DNA of 64,000 bases. Origin: Escherichia coli (lineage in GTDB: Bacteria > Pseudomonadota > Gammaproteobacteria > Enterobacterales > Enterobacteriaceae). The stretch lies in NCBI RefSeq assembly GCF_003334355.1, contig NZ_QOWP01000001.1, one strand, 5' to 3'. The notes beneath the pieces are model-generated. The model did not search any database and was not told the origin of the DNA. It worked only from the letters and a program-made list of their open reading frames with translations. Shown piece by piece: positions 60,533 to 60,959 of this stretch (positions within the stretch are counted from its first letter, which is position 1; every line of letters starts with the position of its first letter). Position numbers and translations under genes: made by a program.

Positions 60533-60587
60533 GATCGTTTCGCCTGTGGTATGAAATTTCACACGCATTATATACAAAAAAAGCGAT

Positions 60588-60818
60588 TCAGACCCCGTTG
60601 GCAAGCCGCGTGGTTAACTCATCCATAAAATATCGCGCAATGGCAGGCATCCCCTTTCGCCCCGCAAATAAAGCATACAACGGTCTGGGTATGCCGCTCC
60701 ACGGTGCAAACAGGCGCACCAGTTCACCGTTCGCAAGCCCCTGTTTACAGGCAAATTGAGGCAATAACGCCACGCCATTCAACACAACCAGGGCGCGAAC
60801 TCGCTGAGCGAAATGCAT
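60588..60818 (-). pseudogene. yqfE: LysR-family regulator C-terminal fragment (pseudogene remnant)
   Basis: 76-aa ORF resembling only the C-terminal effector-binding end of a LysR-type regulator; no N-terminal HTH domain upstream; recognised as the yqfE remnant between rpiA and argP. Confidence 0.6.
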
Positions 60819-60959
60819 TAGCGCAAATCCCTGATCTTTTAAGCTGCGCTTTTAACCACGGATACAAATGTTACCCGCCGACGGCTTCGGTATATGCAAC
60901 CTGACACAAAATTGTGTCATAGTGCAGGAAAAAGCATTTACCAGGAGCAGACAACAGCA

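What the first reader, a model, noticed from the sequence alone, without database searches (positions are those of the whole stretch)
60533..60959. LysR-type regulator fragment next to the intact LysR regulator argP
The 76-aa ORF at 60588..60818 looks like only the C-terminal end of a LysR effector domain and has no HTH-bearing N-terminus. It lies in the 427-bp rpiA-argP spacer and is divergent from argP. It may be a decayed regulator gene, and the remnant might still overlap the argP promoter.
Basis: partly seen in the sequence, partly recalled or inferred. Interest (0 to 1): 0.3.

Follow-up and report, generated by a model that had tools for sequence, protein, structure and literature searches.

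The report
Known LysR pseudogene remnant yqfE
The 76-codon ORF between rpiA and argP is yqfE, an already annotated E. coli pseudogene: the last fifth of a LysR-type regulator gene left after a deletion removed the rest of the gene and its neighbouring target genes, so the finding is real but ordinary.

Summary
The ORF at 60588..60818 (-) lies in the 427-bp rpiA-argP spacer, is divergent from argP, and matches only the C-terminal end of the Pfam LysR_substrate domain (model positions 151-208 of 209, E 7e-7). It is yqfE (b2915), annotated as a pseudogene in E. coli K-12.

New detail: 247 of 5426 complete E. coli genomes, three other Escherichia species, a Pseudocitrobacter and a Citrobacter carry an intact 298-aa LysR regulator at this same site. 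It is divergent from an azoR-like FMN-dependent NADH-azoreductase gene, which in most of them is followed by DUF1471 and ferric-reductase-like genes.

The window holds a deletion allele:
- Only 60588-60780 is LysR-derived (residues 236-298).
- 60781-60859 is the tail of the azoreductase-like gene on the opposite strand. The ORF's ATG and first 13 codons are therefore antisense azoreductase sequence, and the ORF is a junction chimera.
- No N-terminal or HTH remnant exists in any frame.

About 30% of E. coli genomes, including O157:H7, have lost a further 45 bp of the remnant.

The LysR-derived part ends 138 bp upstream of the conserved -10-like element that I predict for argP, so overlap with the argP core promoter is not supported. 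The transcription start was not available. Low interest; already known.

The parts
60588..60780 (-). True LysR-derived remnant: the last 63 codons plus the stop codon of a 298-aa LysR-type regulator (residues 236-298). This is the C-terminal end of the effector-binding domain.
   Evidence: 99.5-100% nucleotide identity to the 3' end of the intact gene in E. coli strains PapRG-06-5, Res13 and Santai. tblastn gives 98% identity, E 3e-37. Pfam LysR_substrate model positions 151-208 of 209.
60781..60818 (-). ATG and first 13 codons (MHFAQRVRALVVL) of the yqfE ORF. They are not LysR-derived; they are the antisense strand of the azoreductase-like remnant, joined to the LysR tail at deletion junction 60780/60781.
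   Evidence: The alignment with intact loci switches at 60780/60781, from L004 7347 to L004 6000. The intact protein reads ...LQAVLGG before NGVALLP, whereas the window ORF reads ...VRALVVL.
60781..60859 (+). Remnant of the 3' end of an azoR-like FMN-dependent NADH-azoreductase gene (residues 182-207 of 209: [26 protein letters not shown]).
   Evidence: tblastn gives 77% identity, E 3e-12 against the spacer and 1e-8 against the whole window. blastn gives 85-93% identity over 57-62 bp to all Escherichia copies.
60860..60903 (.). 44 bp of unassigned origin between the azoreductase-like tail and the conserved argP upstream region. This is where the DUF1471 and ferric-reductase-like genes sit in the four-gene loci.
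   Evidence: Smith-Waterman alignment of 60839-60903 against the intervening regions of L004, L007, L008 and L010 scores no better than shuffles (220-286 of 500 shuffles reach the score). The MAFFT alignment shows only a weak resemblance to the reductase 3' end.
60904..60959 (+). Conserved region immediately upstream of argP. It contains a predicted extended -10 (TGTCATAGT, 60915-60923), the Shine-Dalgarno sequence AGGAG (60943-60947) and a CA-rich leader.
   Evidence: 96-98% identical between the deletion allele and the intact-cluster alleles. The motif AAAATTGTGTCATAGTGCAG is also conserved in Citrobacter. The promoter assignment is my inference from conservation; the consensus scan found no sigma-70 match.
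60533..60587 (-). rpiA 5' region between the yqfE stop codon and the rpiA ATG, with a conserved perfect -10-like TATAAT at 60572-60567 (- strand).
   Evidence: Conserved in Escherichia, Pseudocitrobacter and Citrobacter, and retained next to ERIC insertions in two loci. Promoter function is inferred, not measured.
60895..60926 (.). Imperfect palindrome TGCAACCTGACACAA / TTGTGTCATAGTGCA with a perfect 8-nt core (TGACACAA..TTGTGTCA). It overlaps the predicted argP -10 and the boundary between unassigned and conserved sequence.
   Evidence: the repeat finder pair I1: 15-nt arms, 80% complementary. The left arm is absent from the intact-cluster alleles and from Citrobacter. Significance is unknown.

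Best explanation
The ORF is yqfE, a non-functional relic of a gene. The ancestral rpiA-argP interval held a LysR-type regulator gene transcribed toward rpiA. It was divergent from an operon that starts with an azoR-like FMN-dependent NADH-azoreductase gene and, in most Escherichia, continues with a DUF1471 periplasmic stress-protein gene and a membrane ferric-reductase-like flavoprotein gene, ending just upstream of argP. In the lineage of this window, a deletion of about 1.35 kb (junction 60780/60781) removed four things: the first 235 codons of the regulator (wHTH, linker and most of the effector domain), its promoter/operator region, and all but the last 26-28 codons of the azoreductase-like gene. 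The remaining operon genes are also gone. What is left is 63 LysR codons fused to antisense azoreductase sequence that happens to supply an ATG, which gives a 76-codon open frame. Without a DNA-binding domain, a complete effector pocket or target genes, it cannot act as a LysR regulator. The flanking roughly 55 bp on each side are the conserved rpiA and argP 5' regions, and the middle is neutral filler that is still being eroded. Shown here: the homology, the junction, the synteny and the population distribution. Inferred: lack of function, the promoter positions, and that the regulator controlled the divergent operon.
For: - The K-12 record marks yqfE b2915 as a pseudogene at the identical position.
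- The Pfam hit covers only model positions 151-208 of 209.
- The intact 897-bp LysR gene lies between rpiA and argP in 247 of 5426 complete E. coli genomes, together with azoR-like, DUF1471 and ferredoxin/ferric-reductase genes.
- The same synteny occurs in E. whittamii, two other Escherichia species and a Pseudocitrobacter. A two-gene form occurs in Citrobacter portucalensis.
- Orthologs fall from 56-73% identity to 38% for generic LysR paralogs, which defines an orthologous group.
- Exact junction mapping.
- No N-terminal remnant exists in any frame.
- All six sampled deletion alleles share the argP-proximal boundary (no indel there). The five that retain position 60780/60781 share junction 1, and E09 has lost it in a further 89-bp deletion. 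This implies one ancestral event.
- Erosion continues: a further 45-bp deletion (60713-60757) is present in 18 of 60 evenly sampled genomes, including O157:H7, and strain E09 has 24-bp and 89-bp deletions that destroy the ORF.
- RefSeq annotation of the same ORF varies between 'LysR substrate-binding domain-containing protein', 'hypothetical protein', 'type 2 periplasmic-binding domain-containing protein' and no gene at all.
Against: - The 76-codon frame is open in about 65% of sampled genomes, and the 45-bp deletion is in frame.
- In the few pairwise comparisons possible, substitutions in the 63 LysR codons are mostly synonymous; window versus CFT073 has 4 synonymous and 0 non-synonymous. The counts are tiny, and some variants appear to be shared with intact alleles of other lineages (CFT073 is closer to the intact E. 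whittamii allele than to the window). The pattern can therefore come from recombination with alleles that evolved under selection while intact.
- No expression data were retrieved, so translation of the ORF is not excluded.
- The origin of 60860-60903 is unresolved. It is therefore unclear whether the ancestor of this allele had the four-gene or the two-gene form.
Confidence: 0.9

Rival explanations
1. The chimeric 76-aa ORF is expressed and kept by selection as a small protein. One possibility is a free C-terminal LysR sub-domain fragment that interferes with or binds other LysR-type regulators.
For: The ORF is open in most genomes sampled. Substitutions are mostly synonymous in a handful of comparisons. 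The common 45-bp deletion is in frame. NCBI's PGAP pipeline calls it a CDS in many genomes.
Against: The fragment is only positions 151-208 of a 209-position domain and cannot fold as a periplasmic-binding-protein-type domain on its own (the folding statement is my inference). The first 13 residues are accidental antisense sequence. 15 of the 63 LysR codons are missing in about 30% of genomes. The start codon is changed to TTG in KL53 and E09, and the ORF is destroyed in E09. Only a weak Shine-Dalgarno-like CAGGGA precedes the ATG (sequence). The consensus scan found no promoter. K-12 curators list it as a pseudogene.
Confidence: 0.04
2. The remnant DNA is retained because it now serves as cis-regulatory sequence. 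The 3' end of the LysR relic would act as the upstream part of the rpiA promoter, and the azoreductase-like relic plus the unassigned 44 bp as the upstream part of the argP promoter. This is compatible with the pseudogene reading rather than exclusive of it.
For: A conserved TATAAT lies 15 bp beyond the yqfE stop codon, so a -35 or UP region would fall in the last yqfE codons. 60781-60959 has few differences and no large deletions in the six alleles compared, whereas the LysR part carries deletions of 45, 24 and 89 bp; the E09 89-bp deletion (60699-60787) does clip its first 7 bp. In every arrangement, the gene upstream of argP ends 55-70 bp from the argP ATG, so argP promoter elements always overlap a neighbouring gene's tail.
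Against: ERIC insertions directly upstream of the rpiA -10 in E09 and in Escherichia sp. MOD1-EC7003 displace the LysR tail without removing rpiA. The sequence upstream of position -56 of argP is completely different between intact-cluster and deletion alleles, yet ArgP itself is identical. No transcription start data could be retrieved. PhoB control of argP, once assigned to this region, was not confirmed by ChIP-seq or RNA-seq.
Confidence: 0.3
3. The short spacer is the ancestral state, and the four-gene cluster in the 247 genomes is an inserted islet. The ORF would then be a chance LysR-like frame, not a relic.
For: The cluster is rare in E. coli (4.6%) and its AT-rich sequence looks acquired. 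In Salmonella the same four-gene module sits at a different chromosomal site.
Against: The 'empty' site contains the 3' ends of two of the cluster's genes, in the same order and orientation as in the intact cluster. One is 99.5-100% identical to the intact allele. An insertion cannot leave gene tails in sites it never entered. The cluster occupies the same site in four other species from three genera.
Confidence: 0.02

Closest known systems
yqfE (b2915), annotated pseudogene of E. coli K-12 MG1655
   Same: Same position (NC_000913.3 3059381-3059611, between rpiA b2914 and argP b2916), same strand and same length. The window is 99.9% identical to MG1655 over 4.5 kb.
   Different: Nothing about the object itself differs. 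This analysis adds the deletion junction, the chimeric nature of the ORF's first 13 codons and the identity of the lost neighbouring genes. I did not find these described in the papers held here.
Intact LysR-type regulator WP_000568126.1 and its divergent azoR-like operon in a minority of E. coli and in other Escherichia, Citrobacter and Pseudocitrobacter
   Same: Orthologous by sequence (98% identity over residues 236-298) and by position next to rpiA.
   Different: The window lacks residues 1-235, the intergenic operator region and the operon genes. The intact regulator is itself uncharacterised: no NCBIfam equivalog reaches its cut-off (best is PRK14997 at 169 bits against a cut-off of 380; YafC 153 against 470).
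AphB (Vibrio cholerae, PDB 3szp) and CrgA (Neisseria meningitidis, PDB 3hhg), the closest LysR regulators with solved structures
   Same: They are the closest solved structures to the intact ortholog by sequence (E 3e-36 and 1.5e-28, full length). The yqfE tail corresponds to the C-terminal end of their effector domains.
   Different: The relationship is paralog-level and distant. The window fragment has none of the DNA-binding or oligomerisation parts.

Membership tests
Functional LysR-type transcriptional regulator (LTTR) | N-terminal winged helix-turn-helix domain (Pfam HTH_1, PF00126) | tested here: not met
   Pfam finds only LysR_substrate in the ORF. tblastn of the intact ortholog finds nothing for residues 1-235 in the spacer or anywhere in the window. 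Only 141 bp separate the ORF's ATG from argP.
Functional LysR-type transcriptional regulator (LTTR) | Complete effector-binding domain of about 200 residues (PF03466, two sub-domains) | tested here: not met
   Only model positions 151-208 of 209 are matched, and 63 LysR-derived residues remain.
Functional LysR-type transcriptional regulator (LTTR) | A regulated target, typically a divergently transcribed gene with an operator in the shared intergenic region | tested here: not met
   In intact loci the divergent gene is the azoR-like azoreductase gene. In the window that gene is reduced to its last 26 codons and the intergenic region is deleted. argP is divergent from the ORF only as a result of the deletion.
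Pseudogene (truncated relic of an LTTR gene) | Significant homology to part of a functional gene family | tested here: met
   PF03466 i-E 7e-7. 98% identity to residues 236-298 of an intact 298-aa regulator, E 3e-37.
Pseudogene (truncated relic of an LTTR gene) | An intact ortholog at the syntenic position in relatives | tested here: met
   247 E. coli genomes, E. whittamii, Escherichia sp. E1V33, a Pseudocitrobacter and Citrobacter portucalensis, all adjacent to rpiA.
Pseudogene (truncated relic of an LTTR gene) | Signs of relaxed constraint, such as further disruptions in the population | tested here: met
   A 45-bp deletion in 18 of 60 sampled genomes. Deletions of 24 bp and 89 bp and a start-codon change in E09, and a start-codon change in KL53.
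Pseudogene (truncated relic of an LTTR gene) | dN/dS near 1 since inactivation | tested here: inconclusive
   Pairwise counts are 0-8 substitutions and mostly synonymous, but some variants appear shared with intact alleles, so recombination confounds the test.
Pseudogene (truncated relic of an LTTR gene) | No stable protein product | not testable with these tools
   No proteomic or ribosome-profiling data mentioning yqfE were found in the held literature.

The most novel reading that the evidence does not exclude
The deletion created a chimeric 76-codon gene (13 antisense azoreductase codons plus 63 LysR codons) that is translated and weakly selected as a small protein, for example one that modulates other LysR regulators. 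Alternatively, it rewired argP's upstream region, including a new 8+8-nt palindrome over the predicted -10 element, so that argP expression differs between deletion and intact-cluster strains.
Probability: 0.05. Interest if true: 0.4.

Novelty: already known. Interest (0 to 1): 0.1.

Why it matters
It matters little beyond annotation hygiene. The same relic is variously labelled in RefSeq as 'LysR substrate-binding domain-containing protein', 'type 2 periplasmic-binding domain-containing protein', 'hypothetical protein', or not annotated at all, although it is one pseudogene.

The reconstruction shows how a four-gene redox or stress module (LysR regulator, azoreductase-like enzyme, DUF1471 protein, membrane ferric-reductase-like flavoprotein) was lost from about 95% of E. 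coli. It also identifies strains in which that uncharacterised module could still be studied.

In addition, argP in intact-cluster strains sits only 70 bp behind an operon, with different sequence upstream of position -56. This could be relevant to anyone comparing argP regulation across strains.

Tried and rejected
1. N-terminal remnants in other frames. Translation of all three - strand frames and permissive tblastn (word size 2, E up to 10) gave only noise.

2. Assigning 60860-60903 to the 3' end of the ferric-reductase-like gene. MAFFT suggests about 60% identity to its last codons, but Smith-Waterman scores do not exceed shuffles, so I left the segment unassigned. I therefore could not decide whether there was one deletion from a Citrobacter-like two-gene form or two deletions from the four-gene form.

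3. Experimental start sites for argP and rpiA. The supplements of Kim et al. 2012 contain neither gene. Thomason 2015, Nandineni 2004 and Hove-Jensen 1993 are not held. Promoter positions therefore remain predictions. The consensus promoter and terminator scan found nothing in 60450-61000.

4. A junction-specific count of the 45-bp-deletion allele was confounded because the tool joins the two flanking pieces in undeleted genomes. I used the census of 60 evenly spaced rows instead.

5. pN/pS on the 63 codons is underpowered and confounded by recombination.

6. Rfam found no RNA family in the spacer. A published in-silico CsrA-sponge prediction for the yqfE-argP intergenic region (score 0.64; PMC8144298) was noted but not pursued.

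7. The first locus found with a longer version (L003, GCA_046507405.1) is a frameshift-ridden assembly. I replaced it with complete genomes.

Full report
**What is in the sequence**

The window around the finding is the E. coli serA-rpiA-argP-scpA region. It is 99.9% identical to K-12 MG1655 over 4.5 kb, and the spacer is 100% identical to several other strains.
- rpiA runs on the - strand with its start codon at 60530-60532.
- argP starts at 60960 on the + strand.
- The ORF at 60588..60818 (-) has 76 codons and an ATG start.
- Pfam matches ORF residues 15-72 to positions 151-208 of the 209-position LysR_substrate model (i-E 7e-7) and finds nothing else.

**It is already annotated**

In NC_000913.3 the same coordinates (3059381-3059611) are the pseudogene yqfE, b2915. 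NCBI's PGAP pipeline calls it a CDS in many other genomes, under inconsistent names: 'LysR substrate-binding domain-containing protein', 'type 2 periplasmic-binding domain-containing protein' or 'hypothetical protein'. In some genomes it is not annotated at all.

**Finding the intact gene**

A word-based protein search with the 76-aa ORF returned only short Escherichia and Shigella fragments. One 92-aa fragment (P0019) had a different, more LysR-like N-terminus. Its contig, a frameshift-rich assembly, showed a LysR HTH and Flavodoxin_2 fragments upstream.

Searching that extra 1341 bp against complete E. coli genomes found it in 247 of 5426, always chromosomal and single-copy.

In three annotated examples the rpiA-argP interval contains four genes:
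- an intact 897-bp LysR family regulator (298 aa) transcribed toward rpiA;
- divergent from it, an FMN-dependent NADH-azoreductase gene (209 aa);
- a DUF1471 protein gene (86 aa);
- a ferredoxin/ferric-reductase family gene (441 aa; split in one of the three strains), whose stop codon lies only 70 bp from the argP ATG.

The Salmonella counterpart of the reductase carries the Pfam domains Ferric_reduct and FAD_binding_8.

**Mapping the window onto the intact locus**

blastn against L004 gives the following correspondence.

| Window | Intact locus L004 | Identity | Content |
|---|---|---|---|
| 60401-60780 | 7726-7347 | 99.7% | rpiA 5' end, 55-bp spacer, last 63 LysR codons plus stop |
| 60781-60838 | 6000-5943 | 88% | inside the 3' end of the azoreductase-like gene |
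| 60904-61100 | 4234-4038 | 99% | 56 bp upstream of argP, and argP |

At protein level, the + strand of 60782-60859 encodes [26 protein letters not shown]. This is 77% identical to azoreductase-like residues 182-207 (E 3e-12). It is even closer to the C-termini of orthologs in other genera.

The junction is at 60780/60781, with at most weak microhomology.

Two consequences follow:
- Only 60588-60780 is LysR-derived. The ORF's ATG and first 13 codons are antisense azoreductase sequence, so the ORF is a junction chimera.
- The regulator's first 235 codons, the divergent intergenic region and about 180 codons of the azoreductase-like gene were removed in a single deletion of about 1.35 kb.

tblastn with the intact regulator finds no other remnant in any frame, either in the spacer or anywhere in the 64-kb window.

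The 44 bp at 60860-60903 could not be assigned. Their similarity to the intervening DNA of four loci does not exceed shuffled controls. I therefore cannot say which of two histories applies: a second deletion of about 1.65 kb that removed the DUF1471 and reductase genes, or an ancestor that had the two-gene arrangement seen in Citrobacter.

**Ancestry**

A scan of one genome per species found the intact regulator in four loci: Escherichia whittamii, Escherichia sp. E1V33, Escherichia sp. MOD1-EC7003 and a Pseudocitrobacter MAG. In all four it lies between rpiA and argP.

Each locus shows its own decay of the operon genes:
- an internal deletion or frameshifts in the reductase gene;
- a DUF1471-reductase deletion and a frameshift in the LysR gene in MOD1;
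- no azoreductase-like gene in Pseudocitrobacter.

Other findings on distribution:
- Citrobacter portucalensis has the order argP, azoR-like, LysR, rpiA at the same site.
- Some Salmonella enterica strains carry the complete four-gene module at another site, near ornithine decarboxylase, nucleoside:H+ symporter and MltC-like lytic transglycosylase genes.
- An unidentified enterobacterial contig has the LysR and azoR-like pair next to fimbrial genes.
- Orthologs range from 56% to 73% identity, then drop to 38% for generic LysR paralogs.

The conserved core is the divergent LysR/azoR-like pair. From this I infer, without having shown it, that the regulator controlled that operon.

The alternative that the cluster is an insertion and the short spacer is ancestral is contradicted by the two gene tails present in the short spacer.

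**Population picture**

All 5426 complete genomes match the spacer. A census of 60 genomes taken at even steps down the ranking gave the following:

| Allele | Genomes (of 60) |
|---|---|
| Full K-12-type spacer (426-427 bp) | 39 |
| Further 45-bp deletion, including O157:H7 strains | 18 |
| Intact cluster | 2 |
| Other | 1 |

An alignment of seven alleles shows that all six other deletion alleles share the same argP-proximal boundary. The five that retain position 60780/60781 share junction 1, which implies a single origin. Strain E09 has lost that junction.
- The 45-bp deletion is 60713-60757, which removes 15 codons in frame.
- Strain E09 has 24-bp and 89-bp deletions, the latter crossing junction 1, plus a 126-bp ERIC-like insertion upstream of rpiA.
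- KL53 and E09 have ATG changed to TTG.

The relic is therefore still eroding.

The LysR tail is 99.5-100% identical to intact E. coli alleles. The azoreductase-like tail is only 85-93% identical to every intact copy. My interpretation is that the 193-bp LysR tail, contiguous with rpiA, still recombines with intact alleles. The azoreductase-like relic, only about 80 bp long and bounded by non-homologous sequence on both sides, has diverged in isolation or derives from a distinct allele.

**Constraint test**

Nei-Gojobori counts on the 63 codons are small (0-8 differences) and mostly synonymous, even among relic alleles. Some variants appear to be shared with intact alleles of other lineages; for example, CFT073 is closer to the intact E. 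whittamii allele than to the window. The pattern can therefore be inherited from the intact state by recombination. The test is inconclusive, and this is the main reason I leave a few percent for a functional small protein.

**Promoters**

The only upstream argP sequence conserved across the deletion allele, the intact-cluster alleles, other Escherichia, Pseudocitrobacter and Citrobacter is about 45-56 bp containing AAAATTGTGTCATAGTGCAG. I read TGTCATAGT (60915-60923) as an extended -10. This is a prediction: the consensus scan found no sigma-70 site.

The LysR-derived part ends 138 bp upstream of that -10 hexamer, and the ORF's ATG 100 bp upstream. Overlap with the core promoter is therefore not supported. 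I could not retrieve an experimental argP start site.

From the literature held here:
- The earlier assignment of PhoB control to this region was not confirmed by ChIP-seq or RNA-seq (PMC10294691).
- ArgP is reported not to be autoregulated (PMC11495319, citing Nandineni and Gowrishankar 2004).
- argP mRNA is listed as a GcvB target (PMC9299463). This fits the CA-rich leader at 60950-60959, though I did not test that link.

On the other side, a perfect TATAAT on the - strand at 60572-60567 is conserved in all genera compared and lies 15 bp beyond the yqfE stop codon. A -35 or UP region for rpiA would therefore fall in the last yqfE codons. However, ERIC insertions immediately upstream of this -10 in E09 and MOD1-EC7003 show that the LysR tail is not indispensable there.

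**What the ancestral regulator was**

No NCBIfam equivalog reaches its cut-off. The best matches are PRK14997, YafC and AaeR. The closest solved structures are AphB and CrgA. It is an uncharacterised LTTR.

The operon proteins are an AzoR-like flavoprotein, a BhsA/YhcN/RclB-like DUF1471 periplasmic protein and a ferric-reductase-like membrane flavoprotein. This combination suggests a redox or electrophile stress module. That is inference only and concerns genes that are absent from the window.

**Verdict**

Novelty: already known. Interest: 0.1.

Noticed in passing
window 60895-60926: Imperfect palindrome TGCAACCTGACACAA/TTGTGTCATAGTGCA with a perfect 8-nt core. It overlaps the predicted argP -10. 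Its left arm exists only in the deletion allele, not in intact-cluster E. coli or Citrobacter. It could be a chance product of the junction or an allele-specific operator.
   Followed up: partly
L016 (E. coli E09) about 1504-1630, corresponding to an insertion near window 60535-60575; also L010 upstream of rpiA: A sequence of about 126 bp that I recognise from memory as ERIC/IRU-like (contains GTGAATCCCCAGGAGCTTAC...GTGACTGGGGTGAGCG) is inserted immediately upstream of the rpiA -10 element in two unrelated loci, at the TATA sequence. I did not compare it with an ERIC reference.
   Followed up: partly
L004 4179-4248 (intact-cluster E. coli): In strains with the intact cluster, argP starts only 70 bp after the stop codon of the ferric-reductase-like gene on the same strand, and I see no obvious terminator. 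argP may therefore receive read-through transcription from the LysR-controlled operon in those strains.
   Followed up: no
L011/L012 (Salmonella enterica) 3594-6915: The same four-gene module (LysR, azoR-like, DUF1471, Ferric_reduct/FAD_binding_8) sits at a different chromosomal site in some Salmonella, next to ornithine decarboxylase, nucleoside:H+ symporter and MltC-like lytic transglycosylase genes. No mobility genes are visible. The module has moved or been lost and regained as a unit.
   Followed up: partly
window 60831-60855: Short tandem-like direct repeat CTGATCTTTTAA / CTGCGCTTTTAA (13-bp spacing) inside the azoreductase-like relic. It is probably chance.
   Followed up: no
window 60904-60959: A published in-silico screen (InvenireSRNA; PMC8144298 Table 2) ranked the yqfE-argP intergenic region among candidate CsrA-binding RNAs (score 0.64). 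The argP leader has two GGA motifs, one of them in the Shine-Dalgarno sequence.
   Followed up: no
window 57190-57373, 58022-58172, 43602-43679, 195-265: Rfam gathering-score hits elsewhere in the window: 6S RNA (ssrS), a Sib antitoxin RNA next to ibsC, naRNA4 (RF02564, a nucleoid-associated noncoding RNA) and a tRNA. All are expected features of this K-12-like region.
   Followed up: no
search result: One of the 5758 matches to the rpiA-argP spacer lies on a record classed as a plasmid. It may be an F-prime-like element or a mis-assigned contig.
   Followed up: no
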